Source: Orycteropus afer (taxonomy: Eukaryota). Taken from it: a stretch of 23,058 bases of DNA. The DNA lies in contig NW_006922148.1 of assembly GCF_000298275.1 (NCBI RefSeq), positions 1,228,987-1,252,044 on the forward strand. Reading direction: 5' to 3'. Under the pieces are notes generated by a model. That model saw only the letters and a list, made by a program, of their open reading frames with translations. It was not told the origin of the DNA and made no database searches. Made by a program: the position numbers and the translations under genes. Shown one piece after another: positions 1 to 22,593 of the stretch (its first letter is position 1; the number at the start of each line of letters is the position of its first letter).

Positions 1-140
1 ACCAGAAGGCTGGCAGTTCAAACCCACCAGCCACTCCTCAGAAAGAAGGTTGGGCAATCTACTTCTGTAGTGATACTGCCTCAGAAACCCAAGGATGGGT
101 TGCTATGAGTTGGGTCCGACTCGACGGCACATAACAACAA
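1..140 (+). mobile_element. AfroSINE-type tRNA-derived SINE (copy A). It is 5'-truncated by the window edge and carries the 3' tail '...GACTCGACGGCACATAACAACAA'.
   Basis: Near-identical to the other copies in the window (e.g. 8559-8741). Conserved core 'CCAGAAGGCTGG.GTTCAAACCCACCAGCC...GGGCAATCTACTTC.GTAGTGATACTGCC...GCTATGAGT'. Confidence 0.85.
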
Positions 141-663
141 TATGATTTACAATTTTCTTTCCACGGCTAAACCAGTCCATTCTATCTTGCAATTGTCTTG
201 ATTTTTTCACCATTTAGAAGTTCTATAAGTGCATTACCCCCCACCCCTTTTTTGGTTTGTCGTTGTCTTCATTTGCAAATTTGTGGCTCTCTTCCCTGTT
301 TCCCATCTTTAAAGCTTATTTTACTTGGGATACTTTCATAACTGTGTTGATGTCTGGGTCATGTCATTATGTGTGTTAATGATCGGTTGTTGTTTGCTGT
401 TGTTGGTTCTCTGTCCAAAGGACACCCATTAGAATTTCTTGTAAGGTTGGTTTGGTTTTAATAAATTCCCTTAGTTTATGCTTATCTGGAAATGCCCTAC
501 TTTTACCATCATATTTGCAGGACAGTTTTGCTGCATATATAATTCATGGTTGAAAATTTTTACCTTCATGGTTTTTATATATAGCATCCCATTACCTTCT
601 TGCCTGCATGGTTTCTGCCCAGAAATCCAAGTTTAGTCTTATTACTTGCCCCTTGTAGGTAAC
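141..663 (-). mobile_element. LINE-1 / half-L1 (HAL1-like) fragment, paralog copy 1. It covers the ORF1 C-terminus to junction region and is a collinear paralog of 20700-21890 without the LTR and SINE insertions.
   Basis: Collinear block alignment with 20700-20729 + 21225-21267 + 21469-21890 by eye, e.g. 'TGTGTTAATG.TC..TTGTT..TTG.T.CTCTGTCCAA.GG...CCC.TTAG.AT.TCTT.TAAGGTTG.T.TGGTTTTAATAAAT.CC.T..TTT.TGCTTATCT..AAATG.CCTA.TTT.CC.CATCATATTTG'. The reverse-complement translation of the paralog matches the L1 ORF1p C-terminus. Confidence 0.6.
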
Positions 664-835: not shown

Positions 836-1052
836 TCAGGTCCTAACACTTGTAAATATTCAAACTGTCTGTGCCATCAGGATAGCTGATAGTCTGCAGC
901 TCCGTTTGTGTCATTATTCACTGTTTTCATTCAGGTTTTTCTGCTAGTTGGTATTTAAAGTGGTTTTGTATGCTTCATTTCAATGCTCAGGTCTCCAGGA
1001 TTATCTTTTGTGTCTGTATCAACTGGTTTCTCTTTTTGTGTGTGTTGCATAG

Positions 1053-1579
1053 TGTGGTAGTTAAGTTTGTGTGTCAGCTTGGCTGGGCTTGGTTGAGTGG
1101 CTGGATGTAGAATTCCCCATGATGAGACTAGTAATCAACTCCATGGTGGAATCTACTGTGAGCAGCAGAGTAGCTGCCTTTGGGTCTGTGGTCTGCTTCC
1201 TATATATAAAGAAACAGCTTTGGGAATGGTTTCTCGCTTATAGAATGCTTCAACCCTCCATGTAGCTGTGTCGTTCTGCAGCCTGCCGTGTGGTTTGGTG
1301 ACATTGGAACTGTGCCTTTTTACTTGTCAACCTTGGGCTTGTTGGCCTCAGCAGCCAGCAGCTGTCTGAGTGTAGAAATGCTTCTAGCTCCAGTGGGCCT
1401 GGAGCAGGAGGCAGAGCTGAAGCCCAAGGCTGAGGGGCTTTCACACAGCCCCTAGAGGCTGGCACTTCGAACTCAGACTTCTAACTTCCCGAACTGTAAG
1501 AGAATAAATAAACTCATGTTTGTTAAGGCCATTTCATTTGTGGTATATTCTTGTCAAGTGGCACTAGGTAACCAGAACA
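1053..1579 (+). mobile_element. Solo MaLR-type LTR (ERVL-MaLR, MST/MLT-like) with TG...CA termini and a 5-bp TSD CATAG/TATAG.
   Basis: The 5' end 'TGTGGTAGTTAAGTTTGTGTGTCAGCTTGGCTGGGC' resembles MaLR LTR starts ('TGTGGCAGGTTAGAATTGTGTGTCAACTTGGCTAGGC', from memory). The 3' end has the MaLR-like architecture '...GAACTGTAAGAGAATAAATAAACTCATGTTTGTTAAGGCC...TGGTATATTCTTGTCAAG...AACCAGAACA'. The flanks are 'GCATAG|TGTGG' and 'AACA|TATAGGG'. Confidence 0.65.
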
Positions 1580-2860
1580 TATAGGGTCTGTGTAGCTTGT
1601 TTGTCTCTTCTTCCAGCTTACTGTATGTCACCTTGACTTTTTTTTTACAATGGTGGACTAATACAGTATTTACATTGACTTATTTCACTCACTGTAATGT
1701 CCTCCAAATTCATCCATGTTATGTGGTGATTTGCAGATTCTACATTATTCTTTAGGGTTGCATATTATTCCATTGTATGTATGTACCACAGTTTATCCAT
1801 TCCTCACTTGATAGACACTTGGGTTGTTTCCACCTCTTTGCTGTTGTGATTAGTCCTGTGGTAAATATGGGTGTGCATATATTTATTTGTGTCTTTTTTA
1901 CTTCTTTAGGATACATACTGAGTAATGGAATTGCTAGGTCAAATGGTATTTCTATTTCTAATTTTTTAAGGAATTGACATACTGATTCCAACAATGGTTG
2001 TATCATTTTATAGTCCCACCAGCAGTGTATGAAAATCTCAGTCTCTTCGCATCCTTGCCAGTATTTGTTATTTTCTTTCTTGTGAACTTTGCTATTAATG
2101 CTGGGATGAGATGATATCTCATGGTTGTTTTCATAGCATTTCTCTAATGGCTAATGATTGCAAACATTTCTTTGTGTGTTTGTTGCCTGCCTAAATATCT
2201 TTGGTGAAGTGTCTGGCTTCTGCCCATTTTTCCAACTGTATTGTCTCTTTGATGTTGAGGTGTTGGAGTTTTCTATAAATTTCAGAGATAAATCCCTTGT
2301 CAGGTACGTCATTGTCAGATATTTTTTCCCATTCTTTGTGTTCTCTTTTTACTCTTTTGGGGACGTTTTTTTGATGTACATAAGAACTTAAGTTTTATAA
2401 GGTCCCAATCATCTAGTTTATCTTCTGCTGTTTGTGCATTTTTGGTTATGCTTTGTAGTCTATATATGCCATAAATGAGGGCCCTGAAGATTGGCCCTGT
2501 TTTTTCTTTGATGAACTTTGTAGTTTCAGGTTTTAAATTTAAATCTTTGATTCATTTGGAGTTAGTTATTATGTGTGATGGGCGGTATCAATCTTCTTGC
2601 ATTTTTCTGCAAATGGATAACCAGTTTTGCTTTTTACCATTTGTGGGAGAGAGAGTATCTCTTCCCCATTTAATGGATTTCAGCCCTTTGTCAAAGATCA
2701 ACTGACCATAGGTGAATACATCTGTTTCTGGGTTCTCAATTCTATTCCATTGGTCTATGTGTCTGTTGTTGTACCAGGCTGTTTTGACAACGGTGGCTGT
2801 ATAGTAAGTTTTGTGATCTGGGAGTGTGATTCCTCCTACTTTGTTCCTCTTCTTCAGTAC

Positions 2861-3061
2861 AAAAAAAACCCAAAAAAAAACAAAAAACCAAACTCACTGC
2901 TGTTGAGTTGATTCTGACTCATAGTGACCTCTCCATAGGTCCCTGAGGTGGTATGGAAGTAGATTGCCCAGTCTTCCTTCTGAGGAGTGGCTGATGGGTT
3001 TGAACCGTCAGCCTTCTGGTTAGCAGTCAAATGCTTTAGACACTATGCCACCAGAGTTCCC
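2861..3061 (-). mobile_element. AfroSINE-type SINE (copy C) of the second tail subfamily (tail '...GACTCA..GGCAGTGAGTTTGGTTTTTT', with an A-run on the + strand at 2861-2885). It is nested in the L1 with the TSD TCTTCAGTA(C/G).
   Basis: The tRNA-like head 'GGGAACTCTGGTGGCATAGTGTCTAAAGCATTTGACTGCTAACCAGAAGGCTGACGGTTCAAACCCATCAGCC' is read on the minus strand. Flanks are 'CTTCTTCAGTAC|' and '|TTTTCTTCAGTAG'. Confidence 0.8.
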
Positions 3062-3436
3062 TTTTCTTCAGTAGTGCTTTGCTTATCTGGGGTCTCTTTC
3101 CTCTCCATTTAAAATTAGTGATTGACTTTTCCATGTCCTTAAAGAATTTTGATGGGATCTGGATTGGGATTGCATTGAATGTATAGATTGCTTTGGATAG
3201 TACTGACATTTTCACAATATTCACTCTTGCTATCCATGACCATGGTATGTTCTTCCATTTATGTACTCTCTTAGGGTTTCTTGAAGTCATGTTTTGTAGT
3301 TTTCTTTGAATGGGTCTTTTGTGTTCCTGGTTTGATTTATTCCCAACTATTTTATCTTTTTAGTAGGCATTGTAAATGGTATTGATTTCCTTTTCAGAGA
3401 CCTCTTTGCTGATGTAGAGGAATGCAACTGATTTTT

Positions 3437-3937
3437 TTTTTTAAATTTTTATTGTGATTTGGGTGAAAATTTCCAGAGCAAATTCATTTTCCATACAGCA
3501 GTTCACATACACTGTCTCATGACGTTGACTGCAATTTCACACAATGCAACAGGTCCCCTCTCACTTCCTCCCCATAGTTAGCTCTTTCCTGTTTCCTTCC
3601 CTCTCATGCACTCCTGTCCCCTGAGCTGTCTCCCTGTGCATACACAGCCCTCTATTCTCCCATGATTGATCTTTCCAAGGAGTGTATCTACCTAATGTAA
3701 ATGTTCAGCTCATGTGCCTGTCTTTTGTTTGGCTGGAAGCCACAGGAGTGTGTTTAGTTCTGGACCTGAAGGACATCTAGGGGCCATAGTCTAAGGGGTT
3801 CCATCAGGCTCTATCAGACCAGCAAACCTGGCCCCTGCCTTTTTTTTGTGTGTGTGGTTTTGAGTTTTGTTCCACATTGTTCTCTCACTCTATCCAGGAT
3901 CACCTATATAGATCCCCTTCCGAGTGGTTGACAGTGG
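3437..3937 (-). mobile_element. Polyadenylated retroposed insert of unknown identity (~500 bp). It has an AATAAA-like signal and an A-tail on the minus strand, and is flanked by a 16-bp TSD, AATGCAACTGATTTTT (3421-3436) and AATTCAACTAATTTTT (3938-3953), inside the L1.
   Basis: L1 antisense homology stops at 3436 and resumes at ~3938. The direct repeats match 14/16. The + strand begins with T11 then 'AAATTTTTATTG', so the minus-strand insert ends in 'CAATAAAAATTT' followed by A(n). Confidence 0.55.
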
Positions 3938-4077
3938 AATTCAACTAATTTTTGTATGTTGTTCTTGTATCCTGTCAGTATGCAAAATCTCACAATAAGT
4001 CCAGTAATTTTTTTGCTAAGTCTCTTGGGTTTTCTATATATTGGGTCATATTATCTGCAACTAGGGATATTTTTCCA

Positions 4078-5600
4078 TCTTCTTTTGATGCTTCTTGCAT
4101 TGTTCAATATTTTGCCCATAGAATCCTTCAGGATTGCAACTCAAGGCTTTAATATTTTCTTCTGGTCTTTCAGCTTGAGAAATGCCAAGTATATTCTTTC
4201 CTTTTGATTTTATAACTCCAGGTCTTTGGACATTTCATTATAATATTTTACTTTGTCTTCTTGTGGTGCCCATTGAAATCTTATGTTCAACTCTTTCACT
4301 TCATCTTTTTTCCATTTGCTTTAGCTACTCTTTGTTCCAGATCAAGTTTCAGAGTCTCTTCTAACATCCAGTTTGGTCTTTAATTCATTGCATGTCTTTT
4401 TAATGACCTTTTTGTTTCTTCATGTATGGTATCCTTGATGTCATCCAACAACTCCTGTGGCTTTGGTCATTAGTGTTGAGTGCATCAAATCTATAGTTCA
4501 GATAGTCTCTACGTTCAGGTAGGATATACTCAAAGTTGTACTTTGGCTCTTGTGGTTTTGTTTTAATATTCTTCAGCTTCAACTTCAGCTTGCATAGGAT
4601 CAATTGATGGTCTTTTCTGCAGTTTCCCTTGACCTTGTTCTGACTGATGATATTGAGCTTCTCCATTGTCTCTTTCCACAGATATTGTTGATATGATTCT
4701 TGTGTATTCCATCCAGTTATATCCACGTGCATTTTATATTGTTGAAAAGTGGTATCTGCAATAAGTAATTCATTAGTCTTGCAAAATTCTATCATGTGAT
4801 CTCCAGTATAGTTTTATATCGCCAACATCATATTTTCCAACAATTGATCCTCCTCCTTTGTTTCCAACTTTTGTGTTCTAATCACCAGTAATTATCAATA
4901 CATCTTGATTGAATGTTTGGTCAATTTCAGAGTTCGGAAGTTGGTACTTATCTTCAATTTTTTCATCTTTGGCTTTAGTGGTTGGTGAGTAAATTTGAAT
5001 AATAATTGTATTAACTGATTTTTCTTGTAGGCTGATGGATGTTGTCCTGTCATTGACACAATGTACTTTATGATAGATTATGAAATATTCTTTTTGACAA
5101 TGAATGTGATGCCATTCCTGTGCAGTTTTTCATTCCTGGCATAGTTGACCCTATGTTTGTATGATTCACATGGCTAGTGCCTGTCCATTTCACCTCACTA
5201 ATGCCTAGGATATTGATCTTTATGTGTTCCATTTCAGTTTTGATCACTTCCAGTTTTCTAAAATTCACGTTTTCTACATTCCATGACTCAGTTATTAATA
5301 GATGTTTGTAGCTATTTCTTCTCATTTTGAGTTGTCCCAGATCAGGAAGTGAAGATCTTGAAAGCTTTATTCTATCCACATCATTAAAGTCATCTCTACT
5401 TTGATAAGGAAGCTCTTACTCAGTTGTATTGTGAATACTTTGCAGCCTGAGGGGCTCATCTTCTGGTACTATATCTGGCAGTGTTCCATTGCTAGTTATA
5501 AAGGTTTCAGTAGCTTATTTTTTTCAGAGCTAAATCACTACTTCTGCTTGTTAGTATGTCTTAGTCTGGAAACTCTGCTGTAGTCTGCCCACTACAGGTG
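4078..5600 (-). mobile_element. RTE/BovB-type LINE, copy 3. It covers the 5' region (5'UTR, AP-endonuclease domain and the linker to the start of RT) and is degraded. It abuts the L1 at ~4078.
   Basis: The minus ORFs 5068..5379 ('VIKTEMEHIKINILGISEVKWTG') and 4400..4795 ('LLIADTTFQQYKMH...HQLILCKLKLKLKNIKTKPQEP') match the BovB endonuclease ('VVKQEMARVNIDILGISELKWTG', 'LVIANTLFQQHKRR...HELLIAKFRLKLKKVGK'). The nucleotide sequence is collinear with the reverse complement of RTE copy 2 (15440-17200). Confidence 0.8.
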
Positions 5601-6879
5601 ACCCTGCTGGTATTTGAAATACCAGTGGCATACTTTCCGGTATCACAGCAACATGCAAGTCAGCACAGTACAACAAACTGACAGATAAATGGTGGTGCAT
5701 ATTTGTATTTGGGAATATAAGTTATAAAATTTCTCCAAGGAATGAAAGTATGCTAAAATGGTATGGGAAATGGACAGACAAGTAGTGTGGTGGATGCTGC
5801 TGCAAGATCAAGTAAAGTAAAGACAGAATTATTGCTGAATTTAGCAATGAGATCATTGGTGATGTTGACCAATATCTTTTTTTGTGATTGACAGAGGTGC
5901 GAGCCTAATTAGGTTGAGTTTAAGAGTGAATGGAAGACAAGAGTTTTGAGACACAGGAGAAAATATGGGACAGTAGCAGAGAGGAAAGTGAGGTCAAGAA
6001 TGCTTTATTTTTCTTTTGAAGTGGGAGAAATAACAGCATGTGTATGTGCCAGTGGTAGTGCTCCATTGCAGGAGAGGAAAACTTCCCCATGAGAATGGGA
6101 ATTGCTAGAACTTCTTCCTCTTGTAGGCAAGAGGATGAGAACCAGTGCTCAGAAGCAGTGTCTGGCCTTGGCTGGGAGCTCACAGTTAGTTGGGACAGAA
6201 GGTATAGGTTATGGGGACATATGCAGGTAGGTGGCTACATTTGGTAGTATAGCTTGAAGAAATCTCAGTTTTCTAAAATTGAATTCTAAGATTTAACCTC
6301 ATCATTGCCTCCTAATCAATATTGAAGATTATGTTAAGCAACTCTAAAAATCTGTTAGGAAAATAATAACATCATGATTTTGATAAGCTTCATTGGGAAA
6401 TTAGGTTAATTTTAGTGATCCATTAAATTGGGGAAATGGGAGTAGGGTAGAGTGGGAAAGAGCATGTGATTTATGATATTTATTCCAGTTTGATAATAAC
6501 TGACCACCACTGTCTGGGCTGCTCTGTTCCATACCCATACCTCTGAGCTAGCTCAGGAGGATGTCATAAACATTGAGAAAACCTACATGTGGGCTGGTAG
6601 TCAATGTTTCATACCTTTGGAGGCATTTAGGAGCTGTAACAATAATTACAACTTCAATGAATCAGGCACTGAATTGAGTTTTTCACATGCAGTAACTCTG
6701 GGAGTTAAATGCTATTTTTACTCTACCTGTAAGTTGACAGTGACATTAAACAATATGATAGAGCATACTTTTGACCTCAAGTCATTTTGACTCTAGAGTT
6801 CTAGATCCTAATACTGTACCATAGTGCAACATGGTGTAAAACTTCCTGCCATTGAGTCAGTTCTGTAGGTGATATATAA

Positions 6880-7055: not shown

Positions 7056-8040
7056 TAGGTACCATGAATGCAATTAACTAGTAAATTTTTTGACATGTTG
7101 GAGATGCATAACAAATTATGAATACGTTACAAGAGGCATATGTCCTTTGAATTTTACAACTTGCCCCATATGATATTTCATTCCTGAAATGGCCTCTGCC
7201 ATGAGGAAGGTTGGCCCCAGAATAACTCATTTAGTAGAGAGTTTTTATTAATTTATGGTCAGACAGCTATCTTGTAGATTAATCTTGCATATCTGAGCAG
7301 AGGCTGAATAGAAAGGACCTCTCTGTGCTTGGCTCATGTATTTTAACTTTTCTTGGAATAAGTTTAATGTTTTTAGTTTATTATTTATATAATGATTTTT
7401 TCAAAATGTGGAAAATTAGATGTCAACATCTTATATTAGTTTATGTTCTAAATTCTAATAAAAATACTTCTATCATCATTACCTAAAATTACTTATTTAT
7501 TTGAGTGCCCAGTTATACATCATGAATATATAAGGAAAATCAAGCTGACAGAGCCTGGAACTCACATGCAAAGACAAACTTGTTAAGCAGAGACAGTAGG
7601 ATATCTACAGAGTAATATGAAGACGCTTACCTAAAATACGATTCAATGATAATCATACTCATGAAATACATGCCAAGAAAATATGTGCCAGAGGAGTTTG
7701 GTAGAGTTGTGTGAAACTGAGAGAGTTTTCTGTGCAACCAAAGAGTGAGCAAGATATCTTAGTAGCGCTTTGATCAGGACAAACAGAGCCCTGTGCCATT
7801 TCCAGTCTTGGTTTCTCCCCTTCTAGACTCTCATGGGGCCACACAGGTAGCTCAGAAACTTTCGGACTTGTACCTGTGGGGTTGTTTTGGGTAAGTCCCG
7901 ACCCTAGTTCTTGGGAAGTAATCTGTCAAGAACTCTCCCCCTAGCCATTGAAGCATTTGTTTGCAGGATTTTAAGAGACTGGATCTCCAAAAGGGTGCCA
8001 GCCTGCTGACTTGGGGTGCCTCGAATTGTTTATAAAGGCT

Positions 8041-8230
8041 TTGTTGTTGTTGTTGTTATGTGCCGTCGAGTCAGCCCCGACTCATAGCGACCCCTCCTTG
8101 AGTTTCCGAGGCATTATCACTACGGAAGTAGGATTGCCCAACCTTCCTTCCAAGGAGTGGCTGGTGGGTTTGAACCGCCAGCCTTCTGGTTAGCAGTCAA
8201 GTGCCTTAGGCACTATGCTACCAGAGCTCC
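8041..8230 (-). mobile_element. AfroSINE-type SINE (copy D), full length, with a 12-bp TSD TTT(A/G)TAAAGGCT.
   Basis: The sequence is '(TTG)n TTATGTGCCGTCGAGTCAGCCCCGACTCATAGCGACC...CACTATGCTACCAGAGCTCC'. Flanks are 'GTTTATAAAGGCT|' and '|TTTGTAAAGGCT'. Confidence 0.9.
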
Positions 8231-8558
8231 TTTGTAAAGGCTAGAGCCCCTAGAGCCCCTCAACACTTCCCTGGTGCCCTATACACCATAGCTTTTAGCA
8301 AATCCAATTGTGGACAACATTTTATAATAGGCCCCACCCCCACCCCATTTTGGTGTCTTTGGTGACTATAAATTGTTAAATATTTTTCCTTATTAGTACC
8401 ACTGTTTATTAAAAAATACCAAATATTTAAAAATTCCTGCTTTTTCTTGGTAAGGGAGTGATGTGATAAAACTATCCTTTTACAAAGATTAATAGGAAAG
8501 AAGACAGTAAGATAGAGTGGGATGGAAAAGGTTTTATTCAGGAGCTATCTAGGCAGGA

Positions 8559-8741
8559 GGGAGCTCTGGTAGCATAGTGCCTAAGGCACTTGACTGCTAA
8601 CCAGAAGGCTGGTGGTTCAAACCCACCAGCCACTCCTCGGAAGGAAGATGGGGCAATCTACTTCTGTAGTGATACTGCCTCGGAAACCCAAGGAGGGGTC
8701 TCTATGAGTTGGGTCCGACTTGACGGCACACAACAACAACA
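8559..8741 (+). mobile_element. AfroSINE-type SINE (copy E), full length. It is in inverted orientation relative to copy D, 330 bp away.
   Basis: 'GGGAGCTCTGGTAGCATAGTGCCTAAGGCACTTGACTGCTAACCAGAAGGCTGGTGGTTCAAACCCACCAGCCACTCC...GGTCTCTATGAGTTGGGTCCGACTTGACGGCACACAACAACAAC'. Confidence 0.9.
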
Positions 8742-9185
8742 TTTAGGTGGGAAGAATTGAAGACTTAGATTAGAAAAGCCACAAGAGAAGTAGGTAAAAC
8801 CAAAAAGACATCTCCAAGGAAGAGTACCAAGACATCATAGATTGAATATAAAGAGTATTCTGGAATAATATGACGCCCACATGCTATAAGAAGGCCTGAA
8901 AAAGGGATTTTTTCCTGGCCAGCTTAATAGTAGCTACAATGCTAACTAAGTTACACTGCTACCAAGTGACTCATCTTCAGTTAGGTGTGTATGAACTACC
9001 TAAACATGGAGACAGTGCATTTTCTCCTGTGACATGGACTCTGCATTGTTGTAGTATCTCTTCTAATATCTGAAGCCAGAGTTGGGAACTTGAGGGGCAT
9101 GATAAAAAGTCAAGGAATTTAAAACAAATGTGCATAAGAATTTTATTAGTAGATACATTATGAAGTATGGATTTTTCTTCTTCAG

Positions 9186-12409: not shown

Positions 12410-13284
12410 AATCATTCATTAATCTGACTTTTTGAAATCAGGTGAAAGGAACAAGGTAGAATATTTATCAAATCTGTAATTGAAAATGAAAATACAAAAA
12501 ATAAAAAAACAAATTAAGTACTTTTTGTAAAACTGATCTCATTACCTTCCCCTCCAAACTTTCTTTCTGTGTTCCTTGTCTCTGTCATCCTTCATGTCTC
12601 TTTTTCCTCTCCTCCATTTCCTATTAAATTAGCCATCTGAATTTTCATGTTTATTACATCCATGGAATGTGTCCTATGCCACAACCTATTCTATAGCCAT
12701 TAAATAACTTTAGACCTATTGGTTATTCCTTTGACTCATTAATGCGGAGTAGTAGGCTTCCAAGTTCTTCAGTCCTATCCTGTGTTACTACTTTCTTCCA
12801 TGTCATATCTTAATAAGCCTGAGTTATTTGTGTTTCCTGAAAATACAATGACACTCCATTTGTTTGCTTAATTTTTTTAAATATCATTTTAAAATTTTTA
12901 GCTCCAGTATCCTTTCATCTAAGAGAAAACTAAAGCTTTTCCTGCCATTCCTCAGGAAAGTTAGGTGCCTTTGTTTTATGCTTCCAATACAAACTTGTAT
13001 GTGTCTGTGTCATAACTCTTACACTGTTTAGGAAGATAGAGGTTTAGCTTGTAATCCCCAGTACTTAAGCAGGGAAGTAACAGAAAAGGATAGATAAAAG
13101 AGTTAGTGGGAAAATAAAGAGAAAACTATGGTGCCAAAACCAAGACTGGAGAGAGTGCTTCAGGTAGGGTTACTTATAGCCTCCTAATTGCCAGATTAAA
13201 TAGCAGTGTTTCTGAGACCAAATTTTTTTGAGAAGTTGACCATTTTCTTCTTCCTAAAACATCTAGACTGACTTATTTATCACT

Positions 13285-13471
13285 GTTGTTGTTGTTGTTA
13301 TGTGCTGTTCAGTTGGACCCGACTCATAGTGACCCCTCCTTGGGTTTCTGAGGCAGTATCACTATGGAAGTAGATCGCCCAGCCAACCTTCCGAGGAGTG
13401 GCTTGGGGGGTTTGAACCGTCAGCCTTCTGGTTAGTAGTCAAGTGCCTTAGGCACTATGCTACCAGAGCTC
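13285..13471 (-). mobile_element. AfroSINE-type SINE (copy F), full length. It is inverted relative to copy G, ~70 bp away.
   Basis: '(TGT)n TATGTGCTGTTCAGTTGGACCCGACTCATAGTGACCCCTCC...CACTATGCTACCAGAGCTC'. Confidence 0.85.
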
Positions 13472-13542
13472 TTACCCTTACACTATTAAATTCAATCTGA
13501 CAGTCTCCGTCTTTTAATTAGGTTGTTTTTGTTTAGACCATA

Positions 13543-13654
13543 GGAGCACTGGTAGCGTAGTGCCTAAGGCACATGACTGCTAATCACACAAATAAGTTCA
13601 AACCCACTAGCCACTCCTTGGAAGGAAGGTTGGGCAATCTACTTCCATAGTGAT
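13543..13654 (+). mobile_element. AfroSINE-type SINE (copy G/H), 5' segment. The SINE is split by an RTE insertion and its 3' segment lies at 14983-15056.
   Basis: 'GGAGCACTGGTAGCGTAGTGCCTAAGGCACATGACTGC...GGGCAATCTACTTCCATAGTGAT' stops where the antisense RTE 3' end begins. The SINE resumes at 14983 with 'GATACTGCCTCGGAAACCCAAGGAGGGGTCGCTATGAGTCGGGTCCGACTCGATGGCACATAATAACAACAAC'. Confidence 0.85.
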
Positions 13655-14982
13655 GTTGTTTTTGTTGTTAGGTGCCATTGAGTCATTTCCGACTCATAGC
13701 GACCCCATGCACAGTAGACTGAAACACTGCCTGATCCCATGCCAGCTCCATGGTCCCTGCTATACTTGAGCCCATCATCACAGCCACTGTGTCAATCCAT
13801 CTCGTTGAAGGCCTCCCCCTCTTTCGTTTATCCTCCATCCTACCAAGCATGACATCCTTCTCCAAGGAATGGTTCCTTCTGACAACATGACCAAAATAGG
13901 TGAGACGAAGTCTGGCCTTTCTCGCTTCCAAGGAGCATTTCGGCTGCACTTCCTCCAGGACAGATGTGTTAGTTCTTTTAACAGTCCATGGTACTTACAG
14001 CATTCTTTGCCAGCACCACAACTCAAAAGCATCAACTCTTCTTCGGTCTTCCTTATTCATTGTCCAGCTCTCACATGCATACGAGGTGATTTTACATATC
14101 ATGGCTTCTGTCAGGTGCATGTTAATCCTCAAGGAGACATCCTTGCTCCTCAGCACTTGAAACAGTTCCTTTGCAATTGACTTTCCCAGTGCCACACGTC
14201 ATCTAATCTCCTGACTGCTGCTTCCATTGGCATCGATTGTAGAACCAAGCAATGTGAATTCTTTGACAACCTCAGTCTTCTCTCCATTTATTATGATGCT
14301 GCTTATTGGTCCAGTTGTGAGGATTTTTGTTTTCTTTATATTAAGATGTAATCCATACTGCAGACTGTGTTCTTCAACCTTAATCAGTAAGTGCCTCAAG
14401 TCATCCTCACTTTCAGCAAGCAAAGTTGTATCGTGTGCATATCTCAGGTTGTTAATGATTCCTCCTCCAATCCTGATGCCACGTTTTCCTTCATATAGTC
14501 CAGCTTCTCGGTTTATTTGCTCAGAATATAGATTGAATAAGTGTGGGGAAAGGATACAACCCTGACGCACTCCCTTCTTGATTTTAAACCATGTAGTGTC
14601 CCCTTGTTCCATTCGAACGACAGCCTCCTGGTGAAAGTAGGTGAAGTTCTTCATGAGTACAATCAAGTGTTCAGGAATTCCATTCTTCTCAATGTTATCC
14701 ATAATTTGTCATGATCCACACAATCAAATGCCTTTGCATAGTCAATAAAACACAAGTAAACATCTTTCTGGTATTCTTTGCCTTGAGCCAAGATCCATCT
14801 GACATCAGCTATGATATCCCTTGTTCCATGTCCTCTTCTGAATCCATCTTCCACCTCTGGAAGTTCTCTGTCAATATACTTCTGCAACCGTTTTTGAATT
14901 ATCTTCAGTAAGATCTTACTTGCATGAGATATTAGTGATATTGTTTTATAATTTCCACGATCTGTGGGAATTATATCCATAA
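13655..14982 (-). mobile_element. RTE/BovB-type LINE, copy 1. It is the 3'-terminal 1.3 kb (RT C-terminal half to the 3' end), 5'-truncated, and is inserted into AfroSINE G/H with the TSD CCATAGTGAT (13645-13654) / CCATAATGAT (14976-14985).
   Basis: Minus ORFs include 'ISLISHASKILLKIIQKRLQKYIDRELPEVEDGFRRGHGTRDIIADVRWILAQGKEYQKDVYLCFIDYAKAFDCVDHDKLW' and 'GVRQGCILSPHLFNLYSEQINREAG...RYAHDTTLLAESEDDL'. These match BovB RT 'IALISHASKVMLKILQARLQQYVNRELPDVQAGFRKGRGTRDQIANIRWII...YFCFIDYAKAFDCVDHNKLW' and 'GVRQGCILSPCLFNLYAEYIMRNAG...RYADDTTLMAESEEEL'. The 3' terminus read on the minus strand is 'GGTCGCTATGAGTCGGAAATGACTCAATGGCACCTAACAACAA'. Confidence 0.9.
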
Positions 14983-15056
14983 TGATACTGCCTCGGAAAC
15001 CCAAGGAGGGGTCGCTATGAGTCGGGTCCGACTCGATGGCACATAATAACAACAAC
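14983..15056 (+). mobile_element. AfroSINE copy G/H, 3' segment (the continuation of 13543-13654).
   Basis: See 13543-13654. The joined parts reconstitute a complete SINE. Confidence 0.85.
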
Positions 15057-15224
15057 ATGTTTAGACCATTTACAGTTAATGTAATTACTGATATGATCTG
15101 ATTAATAGTTACCTTCTTGCTAATGGTTTTCTATTTTTCTTATTATTTATTATTTTTTTGGTTTCCTTTTCTTGTATTGAACTTTTTTTTCAATGATTCC
15201 ATTTTATCTCCATTATTGGCATAT

Positions 15225-15345: not shown

Positions 15346-15885
15346 TATTGGCTAACTTATTGGATAGCAAACCTTTTGTTTTATCATTTCAGTGGTCTAT
15401 TGGTCAACACTGCTTTAGGGTTTACTATATACAACTTTTGAGCCCCTCACATTGGAAGGAACTCAAAATACAACTGGGAGAAAGCTGTGTCCTCAAAGTA
15501 GAATTGACCTTAATGATATGGGTGGAATAAAAGCTTTTGGGACCTACATTTGCTGATGAGGCACCAACAAAATGGAAAGAAACAGCTGTAAACATTCATT
15601 AATAATCAGAATATGGAATGTACAAAGGATGAATGTAGGGAAATTGGAAGTTTTCAGTAATTAAATGGAATGCATAAAGATAGTACCCCTAGGCATTAGG
15701 GAGCTGAAATGGATTGGTATTAGCCATTTTGAATCAGACAGTTGTATGGTGTGCTATGCTGGGAATGCCAATTTGAAGAGAAATGGTGTCACACTCATCA
15801 TCAAAAAGAACATTTCAATATCTATCCTGAAGTACAATACTGTCATTTATAGAATAATACCCATATGGCTATAAAGAAGACCAGT

Positions 15886-16069
15886 TAAACCAAACTCACT
15901 GCCATTGAGTGGATTCTGACTCATAGGGATCCCCTTTGGCTTTCCAAGGGGGTAAATATTTATGGAAGTAGATTGCCCAGTCTTCCTTCTGCAGAGTGGT
16001 GGGTGGGTTTGAACTGCCAGCCTTCCGGTTAGCAGTCAAATGCCTTAGGCACTATGCCACTAGAGATCC
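15886..16069 (-). mobile_element. AfroSINE-type SINE (copy I) of the second tail subfamily ('AAACCAAACTCACTGCCATTGAGTGGATTCTGACTCATAG' on the + strand). It is nested in RTE copy 2.
   Basis: The head on the minus strand is 'GGATCTCTAGTGGCATAGTGCCTAAGGCATTTGACTGCTAACCGGAAGGCTGGCAGTTCAAACCCACCCACC'. The RTE reading frame resumes immediately afterwards ('NTTITRIYAPTTKAKDE' matches BovB 'ITVIQVYAPTSNAEEA'). Confidence 0.85.
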
Positions 16070-16937
16070 TAATACTACTATTACTCGAATCTATGCACCA
16101 ACCACTAAAGCCAAAGATGAATAAATTGAAGATATTTACCAACTTCTGCAGTCTGTAATCAGCCAAACATGCAATCAAGATTGCTTATGATTGGAATGCA
16201 AAAGGTAGAAATGAAGAATTAACAATAGTTGGACAATGTGGCCTTGGTGATAGAAATGACTTGGGAGATCAGCATTTTGCAAGACCAATGACTTATTCAT
16301 TGCTAATATGTTTCTTCGGCAACATAAATGGGGCTATATATGTGTACCTTGCCAGATGGAATACACAGAAATCAGATTGATTACCTCTGTGGAAAGAGGA
16401 GATGTAGAAGCTCAGTATCTCCTGTGAAAGCAAGACCAGGAGCTGATTGTGGAACAGACCACCAACTGCTCATATGCAGGTTCAACTTGAAGCTGAAAAA
16501 AATTAAAACTAAGTCCATGAGAGCCAAAACATGACCTTGATTATATCTCATCTGAATTTAGAAACCATCTGAAGAATAGATTTGATGCATTGAACATCAG
16601 TGACCAAAACCCAGACGAATTGTAGAATGACATCAAGATGACAACAAAGAAACAGTCATTAAAAAGGCAAGAGAGGAAGAAAAGACCAAAATGGATGTCT
16701 GAAGACTGTCTGAAACTTGCTCTTGAATGCAGGATAGCTAAAGCAAGTGGAGGAAATGACAAGGTAAAAGAACTGAATATTTTGAAGGGTACCTTGAGAA
16801 GACAACATAAAGTACTGTAATGAAATGTGCAAAGACCTGGAGTTAGAAAACCCAAAAGGAAGAACACAGTCAGCATTTATCAATCTGAAAGAACTGAAGA
16901 AAACATGCAAGCCTTGAGTTGCAATATTGAAGGATTC

Positions 16938-17108
16938 TGTGGGCAAATATTGGGAGCTCTGGTGGCATAGTGCCTAAGGCATGTGACTGCTATCTGGAAG
17001 CCTGGTGGTTCAAATCCATCAGCCACTCCTCAGCAGGAACATTGGGCAATCTACTTCCATAGAGATACTGCCTTGGAAACCCAAAGAGGGGTTGCTATGA
17101 GTCAGATC
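16938..17108 (+). mobile_element. AfroSINE-type SINE (copy J), nested in RTE copy 2 with a perfect 11-bp TSD TGGGCAAATAT. It lacks the usual 3' tail.
   Basis: Flanks are 'CTGTGGGCAAATATTG|GGAGCTCTGGTGGCATAGTGCC...' and '...GTTGCTATGAGTCAGATCTGA|TGGGCAAATATGAATGATG'. RTE copy 3 shows the empty-site sequence 'TATGGGCAAAATATTGAACAATG' (reverse complement of 4105-4127). Confidence 0.85.
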
Positions 17109-18754
17109 TGATGGGCAAATATGAATGATGCAGGAAACCTCAAAAGAGGATGGAATACACAGAGTCACTGTAAACAGAAAGAGTTGGTTGATGTTCATTT
17201 GTTTCAGAAGGTTGCATATGATCAAGAACCACTAGTATTTAAGGAAGAAGTCAAAGCTGCACTAAAGGAAGTGGCAAAGAGCAAGGCTCCAGGAGTTGAT
17301 GGAATACCCATGTTCCAACAAACGGATGCTGTGCTGGAGGCACTTGGCCACTTATGCCAAGAAATTTGGAAGACAACTATCTGGCCAACTGACTGGAGGA
17401 GACCAATGTTTGTGCTCATTCCAAAGAAAGGTGATTCAACAGAATATGGGAATTATTGAATATCTTTAATATCACATGCAAGATTTTGCTGAGAATAATT
17501 TAAAAATAGTTGCTCCAGTTTATTGACAGGGAACTTCCAGAAATTTAAGCTGGATTCAGAAGAGGATGTGGAATGAGGGATATTATTGCTGATGTGAGAT
17601 GGATCTTGGCTGAAAGCAAGCAATACCAGAAAGATGTTTACCTGTTGACTATGCAAAGACACTTGATTGTGTGGCTCGTAATGAATTATGGATAAAATTG
17701 AAAATAATGGGAATTCCAGAACACTTAACTGTGCTCATGAGGAACCTGTACATAGACCAGGAGGCTGTTGTTTGAACAGAACAAGGGGATACTGCATGGT
17801 TTTAAATCAGTAAGGGTGTGCATCAAGATTGTATCCTTTCCCCATACTTAGTCAATCTGTATGCTGAGTAAATAGTTTGAGAAACTGGACTATATGAAAA
17901 AGAATGCAGCATCAGGGTTGGAGGAAAACTCATTAACAGCCTGCAATATGCAGACAACACAACCATGTTTGCTGAAAGTAAAGATGACTTGAAGCACTTA
18001 CTGATGAAGATTGTAGACTACAGCCTTCAGTATGGATTACACCCCAACATAAAGTAAACAAACATTTTTACAACTCGACCAACAAGCAACATCATAATAA
18101 ATTGAGAAAAGATTGGAGTTGTCAGAGATTTTATTTTTCTTGGATCTACAATCAACACTCAAGGAAACAGCAGTCAAGAAACCAGACATTGAATTGCACT
18201 GAGCAAATCTGCTGCGAAAGACCTCTTTAAAGTGTTGAGAGAGGCAAAGATGTCATTTTAAAGACTAAGGTGCACCTGATGGAAGCCATGGTGTTTTCTA
18301 TCACCTCAAATGCATGTGAAAGCTGGAAAATGAATACGAAAGTCCAGAGAAGAGTTGATGCCTTTGAATTATGGTGTTTGTGAAGAATACTGAAAATACC
18401 ATGAACTGCTAGAGGAACAAACCAATCTGTCCTGGAAGAAGTGCTCCTTAGAGGTGAGAATGGCCAGACTTCGTCTCACCTACTTTGGTCATTTTGTCAG
18501 AAGGAACCATTCCCTGGAGAAGGCTATAATACTTGGTAAAGTACTGGGTGGGGTAAGTGGTCAGTGACAAAGGGGAAGACCCTCAGTGAGATGGACTGAC
18601 ACAGTGCCTATAAGGATGCTCTGATGTGTAGCAAAGATTGTGAGCATGGAGCATGACTGGGCAGTGTTATGTTCTCTGGTACACAGGGCTCATGTGAGTT
18701 GGAGGTGACTTGATGGCACCTAACAACAACAATATGAATATTGTAGCATCCAAA

Positions 18755-18861: not shown

Positions 18862-19254
18862 TGTGTAAAATATATCCAGCCTTTTTTTTCTGCCGTATAT
18901 GATAAGGACATTGCCTTTTTATACAGTACTTAGCCATTTACAGAAAAACTACTCTGACTTGGCAGCCACTGGTTGAGCTAGTGCTGAGTGTCATGGGAGT
19001 CAGGAGGCTGTCTTGGAGCATTGCACAGGAAAAAGCCCTTGTGTGGGGACAGCTGCTGGGCCACAATACCCAGTCAGGCCAGAGTTCAGCTTTAGGGGCC
19101 ACCTTCTTCAGCCTCCTGTAAAAGTCACCCCCCCCCCAACTGGTGAATGACCCCAGGGCTCCCTTTTAGTACTAACAATGCTTTGTTTTGTAGGTTCTAT
19201 TACCATGTCCTGAGGAAGAATTTAGTAGATTATAACTCAAGTACTTCATTAATA

Positions 19255-19451
19255 GGATCTCTGGTAGTGTAGTGCCTGAGACATTTGACTGCTAACCAGA
19301 AGGCTAGGGGTTCAAACCCACCAGACACTCCTTGAGAGGAATGTCAGGCAATCTACTTCGTAGTGATACCGCCTCGGAAGCCCAGGGAGGGGTCTCTATG
19401 AGTTAGATCCGACTCGATGGAAGTGAGTTTGTTGTTTGTTTTAGTTTATTA
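19255..19451 (+). mobile_element. AfroSINE-type SINE (copy L) with the second-subfamily tail ('...GACTCGATGGAAGTGAGTTTGTTGTTTGTTTTAGTTTATT').
   Basis: 'GGATCTCTGGTAGTGTAGTGCCTGAGACATTTGACTGCTAACCAGAAGGCTAGGGGTTCAAACCCACCAGACACTCC...GGTCTCTATGAGTTAGATCCGACTCGATGGAAGTGAGTTTG'. Confidence 0.8.
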
Positions 19452-19453
19452 AT

Positions 19454-19547
19454 TGTTGTTGTTATGTGCCATCGAGTTGAACCCGACTCATAGCAACCCC
19501 TCCTTGGGTTTCTGAGGCAGTATCACGACAGAAGTACATTGCCCCAT
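19454..19547 (-). mobile_element. AfroSINE 3' half (copy M), 5'-truncated. It abuts copy L tail to tail in inverted orientation.
   Basis: 'TTGTTGTTGTTATGTGCCATCGAGTTGAACCCGACTCATAGCAACCCCTCCTTGGGTTTCTGAGGCAGTATCACGACAGAAGTACATTGCCCCAT'. Confidence 0.8.
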
Positions 19548-20729
19548 TAGTTCGTTACTATGAGGGGTTAATGTGCATCAAATGGATGTGATAATATACA
19601 TTTAAATGCATTTTATTGAAATATAATTTATGTACACTGAAATACACAGAATTAAAGTGACATGGGTCAGTGCTTTTTTTTTTTTTTTTGCAATGTTCTC
19701 TCCTTTGCCCTCCCACACCTGGCAACCAACAAAGAAAGTTTCCCTCCATATATAAACCTTTCCTTGACCCCCCACAACAATGAACTAAAACTATATTTGT
19801 CCTTCTGTGATTGACTTATTTTACTCAGAATAATATCCTCCAAGTTCATCCATGTTATGCATGTTTTTGCAGACTCTACATTATTGTTTAGTGTTGCATA
19901 GCATTGTATGTACCATAGTTTGGTCATCCATTCTTACATTGATGGGCATATAGGTTGTTTCCATCTTTTTGTTATTGTGAATAGTGCTGCAATGAACATG
20001 GGTGTGTATATATCTGTTCCTGTCCTGGCTCTCATCCCTCTAGGATATATCCCAGTAGTGGGATTGTTGGGTCAAATGTTATCTCCTATTCCAGATTTCT
20101 AAGGAATTGCTATACTGCTTTCCACAGTGGTTGTATCACTTCACAGTCCCATCAGCAGTGTATGAGAGTCCCAATCTCTCCACATCCCTGCCAGCATTTG
20201 AACTTTGCCATCAGTGCTGGGGTGCTATGGAATCTCATTGTTGTTTTGATTTGCATCTCTCTGATGGCCAGTGATCGTGAGTATCTCTTCATGTATTTGC
20301 TAGCCACCTGAATATCCTCCTTGCTGAAGTATCTATTCATGTCTTCTGCCCATTTTTCAATTGGATTTTTAATTCCTTTGCTGTCGAGGCACTGGAGTTT
20401 TCTATAAACCTTAGAGATAAGTCCCTTGGCAGATAAATAATTATCAGCAAATATGGATTTGTTGCTGTCATTTTTGTTACGTGCTTTTTTGTGGTATTGA
20501 TTTCTTTATTCCATATAATTTTCTATGCTGAGCTCATTTTGTTTATGAATTGTGTTATCATTTCCTTTGTTGCTATTATTTTAGTATTTGCTAAATATTT
20601 GTGCTGGTCCTCTTTTTTATTTTGATGTGGAGGTGTATCATTTTTCTTTGAGGTTACCCTGTGCTTTATAGTTTTCTTCCCAAGTTCAGAAAAGTCCATT
20701 CTATCTGGTAGTTGTCTTGACTTCCCTAG

Positions 20730-21224: not shown

Positions 21225-21278
21225 CCTACCATCTAGATGTTCTGTAATGACACAGATTTTTTCCCCTTTTTGGCTTGT

Positions 21279-21468
21279 TGTTGTTGTTGATGTTATGTGC
21301 CCTCGAGTCAGCCCTGACTCATAGCGACCCCTCCTTGGGTTTCCGAGGCAGTATCACTACGGAAGTAGGATTGCCTAACCTTCCTTCCGAGGAGTGGCTG
21401 GTGGGTTTGAACCGCCAGCCTTCTGGTTAGCAGTCAAGTGCCTTAGCTACTATGCTACCAGAGCTCCC
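21279..21468 (-). mobile_element. AfroSINE-type SINE (copy N) inserted in the half-L1 with an 11-bp TSD TTTTGGCTTGT (21268-21278 and 21469-21479).
   Basis: '(TGT)n GATGTTATGTGCCCTCGAGTCAGCCCTGACTCATAGCGACCCCTCC...CTACTATGCTACCAGAGCTCCC'. The flanking direct repeats are identical. Confidence 0.9.
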
Positions 21469-21489
21469 TTTTGGCTTGTAGTTGTCCTC

Positions 21490-22593
21490 ATTTGTCAATT
21501 GATGTCTCTGGTTCCCTGTTTACAGTCTTGTAGGCTTATTTACTTTGTATACTTCCATAGCTGGGTTGGTTTCTGGGTTATATCATCATGTGTTAATGGT
21601 CATTGTTATTGCTTCTCTGTCCAAGGGGCTCCCTTTAGCATCTCTTCTAAGGTTGATCTGGTTTTAATAAATCTCCTTCATTTCTGCTTATCTACAAATG
21701 TCCTAATTTCCCCCATCATATTTGAGGGATAATTTTGTTTGGTACATAATTCTTGGTTGGAATTTTTTCTTTTTCACGGTTTTATATGTACCATCCCATT
21801 GTCTTCTCTTCTGCATGGTTTCTGCTGAGAAATCTGAGCTTAGTCTTCTTGGTTGCCCCTTGTAGGTAACTTTTTGTTTCTCCTGTGCTGCTTTGAGGAT
21901 TCTTTATTTGTCTTTGGTTTTGGTGAGTTTGCTGATGATATTTCTTGGTGATTTTCTTTTGGGTTCTGTCCTGTTTTGGGTTCGTTGGACTTCCTGAATG
22001 GATATATTCTTATCTTTCATCCTACCAGAAAAATTCTGTTCCAACAAATCTTCTACAATTTTCTCTGTGGTTTTATTTGTCTCTTCCTGTTCTGGAATTC
22101 CGATTACATGTAGGTTGTTCCTTTTTATGGTATCCCACATGAACCTTAAGCTTTTTTCATTTTGTTTTGATCTTTTTTTTTTCTGATTGATCCCTTTCCA
22201 AAGAAGTATTGAGGTACTTGCCTTCAATCTTACTAATTCTCTCTTCAAGTGATTCAATTCTAATCCTTTGCCCATCTTATCTATTTTTGAAAATTTAATA
22301 TTAATCTTCTGGATTTCTGTGCATAGATTTTGTATCATTTCTAATTTTTCATTGATTTTGTCATTTTGTTGTATTGTCTTTCAGAATTTTTCTAGGGTTT
22401 TCTCTGTGTTTTCCTTGATCTGCCTCTCAATTTGTTGAAAATACCTAAATATAATTCTTTTGAATTCCTTATGAGGGAGTTCCAGTGCTGCATCTTCCTC
22501 AGGGATGTGTTTTGGGTCTGTATCCTGCCTTGTTTCTCCTGCTTTATCTTGCTTCTTTGTGTGGACTGTGGTGCTCTGTTGTTTCTGAGGCAT
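21490..22593 (-). pseudogene. L1 ORF1p-like coding region of the half-L1. It is disrupted (an in-frame stop near 21895 and a frame break near 22340-22380).
   Basis: Minus-strand translations: 'EFKRIIFRYFQQIERQIKENTEKTLEKF' (coiled-coil part), 'WDTIKRNNLHVIGIPEQEE...LLEQNFSGRMKDKNISIQEVQRTQNRTEPKRKSPRNIISKLTKTKDK*RILKAAQEKQKVTYKGQPRRLSSDFSAETMQARRQW'. These match human ORF1p 'WDYVKRPNLRLIGVPESDV...IIQENFPNLARQANIQIQEIQRTPQRYSSRRATPRHIIVRFTKVEMKEKMLRAAREKGRVTLKGKPIRLTADLSAETLQARREW' (from memory). Confidence 0.8.

What the first reader, a model, noticed from the sequence alone, without database searches (positions are those of the whole stretch)
3421..3953. A polyadenylated ~500-bp retroposed insert of unknown identity with a 16-bp TSD inside the L1
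L1 antisense homology stops after 'GAGGAATGCAACTGATTTTT' (3436) and resumes at 'GAATTCAACTAATTTTTGTATG' (3938). The 501 bp in between are flanked by a 14/16 direct repeat, AATGCAACTGATTTTT / AATTCAACTAATTTTT. On the minus strand the insert ends '...CTCTGGAAATTTTCACCCAAATCACAATAAAAATTT' + A11, an AATAAA-type signal and a poly-A tail. A TSD of this length together with a poly-A tail is the signature of L1-mediated retroposition. The body has no tRNA A/B boxes, no LTR termini and no similarity to the other repeats in the window. It could be an undescribed SINE or SINE-like family, or a retro-copied 3'UTR of a host gene.
Basis: seen in the sequence. Interest (0 to 1): 0.5.

Follow-up and report, generated by a model that had tools for sequence, protein, structure and literature searches.

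The report
Truncated L1 tail inside older L1
The "unknown" 500-bp insert is the last ~490 bases (3' untranslated region) of a younger afrotherian LINE-1 element that retrotransposed into an older LINE-1, which is the commonest and most ordinary kind of LINE-1 insertion.

Summary
A ~0.5-kb segment, sense on the minus strand, interrupts an old L1 ORF2. It ends in AATAAA plus an A-run and is flanked by a target-site duplication, which is 21 nt long (18/21 matches; 3416-3436 and 3933-3953) rather than 16. Deleting the insert and one repeat copy restores an unbroken L1 ORF2 alignment.

The insert's identity is not unknown. A profile built from four elephant L1 3'UTRs, each lying directly after an ORF2 stop and ~1.05 kb long, hits the window once strongly. 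That hit is 3915..3433 on the minus strand, profile positions 561-1035 of 1051, E = 6e-22. Five hundred dinucleotide shuffles of the insert scored at most 2.5 bits against 67.7 observed. The match runs colinearly to the shared 3' terminus (...TTTCAC..ACAATAAAAATT(A)n) and begins within 17 nt of the insert's 5' edge. That leaves no room for a SINE head.

So this is a 5'-truncated, 3'UTR-only L1 copy of the afrotherian L1 lineage, inserted by target-primed reverse transcription.

The source species is an afrotherian but not an elephant. I could not reach its genome, so the exact subfamily is unnamed. The finding is ordinary and of low interest.

The parts
3443..3932 (-). Body of the insert: the distal ~490 nt of an afrotherian-lineage L1 3'UTR (a 5'-truncated L1 with no ORF sequence).
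   Evidence: nhmmer with a profile of four elephant L1 3'UTRs hits 3915..3433 (-), profile positions 561-1035 of 1051, E = 6.4e-22, 67.7 bits. Controls scored at most 2.5 bits. Pairwise local alignments to four UTRs give 65-70% identity, z = 16-33, colinear to the 3' end.
3448..3453 (-). AATAAA polyadenylation signal of the inserted L1, within ...CACAATAAAAATTT(A)n.
   Evidence: Read from the sequence. The same terminal motif, ACAATAAAAATT(A)n, ends the elephant L1 copies.
3437..3442 (-). Remnant of the poly(A) tail. There are 6 A beyond the duplication. The whole A-run is 11 nt (3432-3442) and merges with the AAAAA that starts the target-site duplication.
3416..3436 (-). Target-site duplication, copy on the 3' side of the insert. 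Sense strand: AAAAATCAGTTGCATTCCTCT.
   Evidence: It aligns to the same L1 positions as the other copy.
3933..3953 (-). Target-site duplication, copy on the 5' side of the insert. Sense strand: AAAAATTAGTTGAATTCCACT. Matches the other copy at 18/21.
3554..3623 (-). Purine-rich, G-run-rich tract inside the inserted UTR (83% purine over 70 nt). This is a feature typical of mammalian L1 3'UTRs.
   Evidence: for the composition. That such tracts are typical of L1 3'UTRs comes from my own knowledge, not from a test here.
3060..3436 (-). Host (older) L1, ORF2 segment on the 3' side of the insert.
   Evidence: tblastn with human ORF2 aa 738-864. BLASTN to elephant L1.
3954..4085 (-). Host L1, ORF2 segment on the 5' side of the insert. 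Its homology ends at ~4085-4100, where RTE/BovB-like sequence begins.
   Evidence: Repair test, (HSP from repaired position 116, which is window ~4085). RTE-like matches from 4102 onward.
870..2859 (-). Remainder of the host L1: the ORF2 C-terminus (1675-2859) and its own, different 3'UTR (~870-1640). An AfroSINE inserted at ~2860-3060 separates it from the segment above.
   Evidence: Assigning the UTR to an old L1M type rests on a motif I recall, not on a test.

Best explanation
The segment at 3437-3932 (minus strand) is a 5'-truncated LINE-1 copy. It consists only of the last ~490 nt of the long 3'UTR of an afrotherian-lineage L1 ('AfroLINE'), plus a short poly(A) remnant.

Inferred sequence of events:
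1. An L1 mRNA from a then-active element in this afrotherian lineage was bound by its own ORF2 protein.
2. The endonuclease nicked the strand opposite the insert's sense strand inside an older, dead L1, at 5'-GATTTTT/GTATG-3'.
3. The T-run primed reverse transcription on the poly(A) tail.
4. Reverse transcription stopped or was resolved after ~490 nt (5' truncation).
5. A staggered second-strand cut 21 nt away produced the 21-nt target-site duplication.

The copy has no ORF and no promoter and is inert. The 3/21 mismatches between the duplicated copies suggest the event is tens of millions of years old (~36 My at 2.2e-9 per site per year, with very wide error).

Shown here: the insertion anatomy, the homology to L1 3'UTR, and the restoration of the host ORF2. 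Inferred: the TPRT steps, the age, and the identity of the source subfamily.
For: 1. In two elephant genome loci, four L1 copies carry the same ~1.05-kb sequence between the ORF2 stop and the poly(A) tail. A profile of these hits the window once strongly, at 3915..3433 (-), profile positions 561-1035 of 1051, E = 6.4e-22. The reversed window gives no hit. Five hundred dinucleotide-preserving shuffles of the insert reach at most 2.5 bits against 67.7 observed.

2. Pairwise alignments cover insert nt ~38-502 against UTR nt ~564-1015 at 65-70% identity, z = 16-33. The elephant copies are themselves only 68-78% identical to one another.

3. The 3' terminus is shared: TTTCACnnAAAnnACAATAAAAATT(A)n.

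4. The window's own L1 at 19698-19767 carries the beginning of the same UTR type (profile positions 27-96, E = 2e-4). An L1 with this type of 3'UTR start has therefore inserted in this genome.

5. The 21-nt duplication lies exactly at the breakpoints, and removing the insert plus one copy restores one ORF2 frame and one HSP to elephant L1.

6. The nick site TTTTT/G resembles the L1 endonuclease consensus TTTT/A (sequence; consensus from my own knowledge).

7. No tRNA or small-RNA head was found. There is no similarity to the window's AfroSINEs or RTEs.

8. Published work describes a distinct, lineage-specific L1 clade (AfroLINE) active across afrotherians (PMC1764860).
Against: Identity to the only reachable afrotherian L1 UTRs (elephant) is just 65-70%. 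The homology is therefore remote, and the same-species master element was not seen.

The first ~17 nt of the insert (3932-3916) lie outside the nhmmer alignment. They align only weakly in MAFFT.

Genomic copy number and the distribution of 5' ends in the source genome could not be examined.
Confidence: 0.9

Rival explanations
1. The insert belongs to a discrete non-autonomous retroposon family (SINE-like) whose whole body derives from the distal L1 3'UTR. Such a family would have a fixed 5' end at about this position and be mobilised in trans by L1.
For: The insert contains no ORF sequence, and a single copy cannot show whether its 5' end is fixed or random. In elephant locus L001, the sequence at 8266-8383 shares only the last ~115 nt of the L1 3' end, with different sequence upstream. 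L1-tail-bearing elements of other kinds may therefore exist in Afrotheria.
Against: L1 UTR homology starts within 17 nt of the 5' junction, which leaves no room for a head or promoter. ARAGORN and Rfam find nothing. There is no second copy in 23 kb of window or 89 kb of elephant sequence. Random 5' truncation is the rule for L1 insertions (established knowledge).
Confidence: 0.05
2. The insert is a processed retrocopy of a host transcript (mRNA or lncRNA) whose 3' end happened to be an embedded L1 3'UTR using the L1 polyadenylation signal. This would be the reader's 'retro-copied 3'UTR' in modified form.
For: Over its last 490 nt, such a transcript would be indistinguishable from an L1 mRNA. 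The anatomy (duplication, tail, AATAAA) would be identical.
Against: No non-L1 sequence is present anywhere in the insert. The idea needs an extra assumption and has no supporting observation.
Confidence: 0.03
3. There was no insertion. The segment is a rearranged or mis-assembled part of the host L1, and the flanking repeat is chance.
For: The host and the insert are both L1 and lie in the same orientation.
Against: The host L1 has its own, different 3'UTR at ~870-1640, and the insert shows no similarity to it. Both repeat copies map to the same 21 nt of L1 ORF2, and excising the insert restores the frame. A match of 18/21 or better occurs in 2 of 200,000 random pairs.
Confidence: 0.01

Closest known systems
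5'-truncated LINE-1 insertions (target-primed reverse transcription), here of the afrotherian L1 lineage ('AfroLINE', Waters et al. 2007, PMC1764860)
   Same: The insert is homologous to L1 3'UTR, colinear to the canonical 3' terminus. It has AATAAA, an A-tail, a 21-nt target-site duplication and a T-rich nick site. It lacks 5' sequence and is nested in older L1 sequence.
   Different: Nothing differs in kind. The exact subfamily is therefore unnamed.
Elephant L1 3'UTR (copies at L001:421-1577, L001:16728-15705, L001:34252-35434, L002:20230-21254)
   Same: Same order of sequence blocks over the distal ~475 positions, same purine-rich tract, same terminal motif.
   Different: Lineage-specific differences, for example a (CA)n-A8-GGCAGGGG insertion at 3830-3855 in the window copy and a 57-nt tandem triplication in one elephant copy. 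Substitution divergence is ~30-35%.
AfroSINE (tRNA-derived SINE mobilised by RTE/BovB; PMC6007223)
   Same: Abundant in the same window, and one copy has also inserted into the same host L1 (~2860-3060).
   Different: No sequence similarity to the insert. AfroSINEs end in (CAA)n or (GGTTT)n rather than AATAAA plus poly(A), and they use RTE rather than L1.
Processed pseudogenes / retrocopies of host mRNAs
   Same: Same L1-driven mechanism and the same hallmarks.
   Different: The insert's sequence is L1, not a host gene.

Membership tests
LINE-1 (5'-truncated copy) | Sequence homology to L1, colinear up to the element's 3' terminus | tested here: met
   nhmmer E = 6.4e-22, profile positions 561-1035 of 1051. 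Controls. Pairwise z = 16-33. Shared terminal motif.
LINE-1 (5'-truncated copy) | Polyadenylation signal and 3' poly(A) tail | tested here: met
   AATAAA at 3453..3448 (-). A-run of 11 nt, of which 6 lie beyond the duplication.
LINE-1 (5'-truncated copy) | Target-site duplication of roughly 7-20 bp at the exact junctions | tested here: met
   21 nt, 18/21 matches. Both copies map to the same L1 ORF2 positions, and excision restores the host frame.
LINE-1 (5'-truncated copy) | Insertion at an L1-endonuclease-type site (TTTT/A-like) | tested here: met
   The nicked strand reads GATTTTT/GTATG. This is a T5/G variant of the consensus. The consensus itself is from my own knowledge.
LINE-1 (5'-truncated copy) | A same-species full-length L1 whose 3'UTR matches the insert at subfamily-level identity | not testable with these tools
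   No same-species DNA or proteins could be retrieved.
SINE (small-RNA-derived head plus LINE-derived tail) | A tRNA-, 7SL- or 5S-derived 5' head with a pol III promoter | tested here: not met
   ARAGORN finds none. Rfam finds none at gathering threshold. The only sub-threshold hit is antisense: CPEB3, 17 bits, E = 0.08. L1 homology begins within 17 nt of the 5' junction.
SINE (small-RNA-derived head plus LINE-derived tail) | Many genomic copies sharing one fixed 5' end | not testable with these tools
   The source genome is not available. No second copy in the window or in 89 kb of elephant DNA.
AfroSINE | Similarity to the AfroSINE consensus and an RTE-type microsatellite tail | tested here: not met
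   The insert has no BLASTN similarity to the 12 or more AfroSINE copies in the window. Its tail is AATAAA plus A(n).
Processed retrocopy of a host gene | Homology to a unique, intron-containing parent gene or its 3'UTR | not testable with these tools
The whole insert is already accounted for by L1 UTR homology.

The most novel reading that the evidence does not exclude
The insert could be the first recognised copy of a 3'UTR-only, non-autonomous L1-derived retroposon family with a fixed 5' end, in a poorly annotated non-elephant afrotherian genome. It could also derive from an L1 subfamily whose 3'UTR has not been catalogued for that species.
Probability: 0.05. Interest if true: 0.25.

Novelty: already known. 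Interest (0 to 1): 0.04.

Why it matters
It matters little biologically. Nested, 5'-truncated L1 copies make up a large share of every placental genome.

The value lies in annotation. Afrotherian L1s carry an unusually long (~1 kb) non-coding 3'UTR, so 3'UTR-only copies can look like 'unknown polyadenylated retroposons' to a reader who recognises L1 by its ORFs. Knowing this prevents false leads of this type elsewhere in the same genome.

Tried and rejected
1. BLASTN of the insert against the window found no other copy. Identity therefore could not be settled inside the window.

2. Rfam and ARAGORN found no small-RNA part. A permissive Rfam run gave only an antisense, sub-threshold CPEB3-ribozyme hit (17 bits against a gathering score of 35, E = 0.08), which I treat as chance.

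3. A protein search with the window's intact RTE reverse-transcriptase ORF returned no same-species proteins. It did return two elephant proteins, whose loci supplied the L1 UTRs.

4. A protein search with translated AfroSINE frames, aimed at exonised SINEs in the source species, found nothing.

5. A protein search with the window's afro-type ORF2 C-terminus gave a best identity of ~60%. The top metagenome contigs turned out to be primate L1 (L003-L005), plus one afro-type L1 (L006) that ends 80 nt into its UTR.

6. Exact-pattern scans of JGI metagenomes and GTDB genomes, using the insert's 3' end and the window's AfroSINE core, gave zero hits.

7. A full-text search of papers for four diagnostic sequence strings gave zero hits.

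8. I considered that the insert's 5' end resembles an AfroSINE core (CCACTCGGAAGG). I rejected this because BLASTN shows no similarity and the stretch aligns colinearly with L1 UTR.

9. I considered that the internal (CA)nA8 run marks a junction between two separate retroposed pieces. I rejected this because both sides are colinear with one L1 UTR.

Full report
**Setting.** The window is mammalian and afrotherian.
- It holds at least a dozen AfroSINE copies that are 81-92% identical to one another.
- It holds RTE/BovB fragments with an intact RVT_1-positive ORF at 14199-14702.
A Transposase_22 hit supports the ORF1 piece.
- The AfroSINEs match elephant copies only partially and at 72-86%. The species is therefore an afrotherian other than an elephant, and I could not name it.

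**Checking the observation.** The host L1 lies on the minus strand.
- ORF2 aa ~738-864 map to 3431-3060 and aa 861-1260 map to 2857-1675.
- An AfroSINE is inserted at ~2860-3060.
- On the other side of the insert the frame reads GYKNNIQKLVEF, corresponding to human GYKINVQKSQAF.
- The flanking direct repeat reported as 14/16 extends to 21 nt with 18/21 matches, at 3416-3436 and 3933-3953.
- I deleted 3437-3953 and aligned the result to a near-full-length elephant L1. One uninterrupted HSP resulted, along with one ORF2 frame (...GYKNNIQKSVAFLYISKE...).
- In the unrepaired sequence the two HSPs overlap by exactly 21 nt of L1, nt 2224-2244.
- The repeat is therefore a genuine duplication of host sequence, located exactly at the breakpoints.
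- Only 2 of 200,000 random 21-mer pairs from the window match at 18/21 or better.
- On the minus strand the insert ends ...CACAATAAAAATTT followed by an 11-nt A-run. Five of those A are shared with the duplication.
The body is 3443-3932, 490 nt.

**What the insert is.** The insert has no BLASTN similarity to anything else in the window. It has no ORF longer than 40 aa and no tRNA or Rfam match.

The lead came from outside the window. A protein search with the window's RTE ORF returned two elephant proteins. Their genomic loci, L001 (Loxodonta) and L002 (Elephas), were fetched. The insert's terminal ~76 nt hit three places in L001 at 75-79% identity. Two of these are the ends of ~1-kb sequences lying directly downstream of L1 ORF2 C-termini.

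In all, four elephant L1 copies carry the same ~1.05-kb 3'UTR between the ORF2 stop and the poly(A) tail. Each aligns with the insert colinearly:
- Insert nt ~38-502 align to UTR nt ~564-1015, that is, to the very 3' end.
- Identity is 65-70%, with z-scores of 16-33 against shuffles.
- The elephant copies are themselves only 68-78% identical to each other.

An nhmmer profile of the four UTRs finds one strong hit in the whole window. It lies at 3915..3433 on the minus strand, profile positions 561-1035 of 1051, E = 6.4e-22, 67.7 bits. The reversed window gives no hit, and 500 dinucleotide-preserving shuffles of the insert reach at most 2.5 bits.

The multiple alignment shows a common terminus, TTTCACnnAAAnnACAATAAAAATT(A)n. 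The sense strand also carries a purine-rich tract, 83% purine over 70 nt at 3623-3554. Such tracts are a familiar feature of L1 3'UTRs, which is my own knowledge and was not tested here.

The same profile gives a second, weak hit at 19767-19698 (profile positions 27-96, E = 2e-4). This is the start of the 3'UTR of another L1 in the window, one that is polyadenylated early. It shows that an L1 with this type of 3'UTR start has inserted in this genome.

**Mechanism.** The anatomy is that of target-primed reverse transcription by L1.
- The nicked strand reads GATTTTT/GTATG, a T-run that primes on the poly(A) tail.
- The cDNA covers only the last ~490 nt of the L1 RNA, which is 5' truncation.
- A staggered second cut gives the 21-nt duplication.
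- The anatomy and the homology are shown. The individual TPRT steps are inferred from established L1 biology.
- Three mismatches in 21 nt give a Jukes-Cantor distance of 0.158 between the copies. At 2.2e-9 per site per year that is about 36 My, with a very wide error from so few sites.
- The insert postdates the host L1. The host has its own, different 3'UTR at ~870-1640. I recognise that UTR as an old L1M type from a remembered motif. This is a recollection and not a test.

**Rivals.**
- *A SINE-like family made solely of L1 3'UTR.* This cannot be excluded from one copy. There is, however, no head: L1 homology begins within 17 nt of the 5' junction. There is also no pol III or small-RNA signal and no second copy in the window or in 89 kb of elephant DNA.
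- *A retrocopy of a host transcript that ended in an embedded L1.* This is formally indistinguishable over these 490 nt but needs an extra assumption with no supporting observation.
- *A rearrangement or chance repeat.* This is contradicted by the repair test.

**Comparison with what is known.** This is an ordinary 5'-truncated L1 copy of the lineage-specific afrotherian L1 clade described as AfroLINE (PMC1764860). It is unrelated to AfroSINEs, which are RTE-mobilised and end in (CAA)n or (GGTTT)n (PMC6007223). The one membership feature I could not test is a same-species master L1 with a closely matching UTR.

**Dead ends.** All routes to same-species sequence failed.
- Two further protein searches returned no same-species proteins.
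- The contigs behind the top hits were primate L1, plus one afro-type L1 that stops 80 nt into its UTR.
- Four collection scans gave zero hits.
- A sequence-string search of papers gave zero hits.

**Verdict.** The proposed identity (novel SINE or gene 3'UTR retrocopy) is not supported. I rate it already known, with interest about 0.04.

Noticed in passing
window 19677-20454 (minus strand): This L1 copy has an ORF2 C-terminus followed by only ~100 nt of the afro-type 3'UTR and then an A16 run. It looks like premature polyadenylation, or an internal A-rich stop, within the long UTR. It matches profile positions 27-96 of the elephant UTR model (E = 2e-4).
   Followed up: partly
window 1-140, 641-860, 2832-3082, 8021-8252, 8538-8771, 13264-13494, 13561-13705, 14976-15057, 15858-16091, 16931-17171, 19233-19560, 21257-21486: The window is dense in AfroSINE copies that are 81-92% identical to one another, but only partly and 72-86% similar to elephant copies. 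Two tail types occur: (CAA)n and GGTTT-like. This implies a relatively young AfroSINE subfamily in a non-elephant afrotherian. The species was not identified.
   Followed up: partly
window 4102-5693 (-), 13659-14955 (-), 15439-16950, 17122-18750 (+): Several RTE/BovB-type LINE fragments are present. One carries an intact 167-aa RVT_1 ORF (14199-14702). They are 74-80% identical to elephant RTE copies. One of them abuts the 5' end of the host L1 at ~4100.
   Followed up: partly
window ~870-1640 (minus strand): The host L1's own 3'UTR starts after a short internal A9 run at ~1640. It contains the motif TTTATTCTCTTACAGTTCGGGAAGTTAGAAGTC, which I recall from old eutherian L1M-type 3' ends. It is unrelated to the afro-type UTR of the insert.
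   Followed up: no
L001:8266-8383 (Loxodonta africana): This element ends in poly(A) and shares only its last ~115 nt with the L1 3' end. It is 75% identical to the insert's 3' end, and its upstream sequence differs. It may be an older L1 subfamily or an element that borrowed the L1 tail.
   Followed up: no
L001:1300-1480 (Loxodonta africana): One elephant L1 3'UTR carries a tandem triplication of a ~57-nt unit (AACATGAAAATAGAGGGTGGAGAGGAGTGTGCTGTCTCATTAGGGGGAGAGCAACTAAA) that the other three copies lack.
   Followed up: no
window 409-663 (-) and 21627-22338 (-): Two L1 ORF1 fragments are present. The second includes an intact 144-aa ORF with a Transposase_22 match. It is interrupted by an AfroSINE at ~21257-21486.
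   Followed up: no
window 3768-3871 (+): A sub-threshold Rfam match to the CPEB3 ribozyme model (17.3 bits against a gathering score of 35, E = 0.083) lies antisense to the inserted L1 UTR. I treat it as chance.
   Followed up: no
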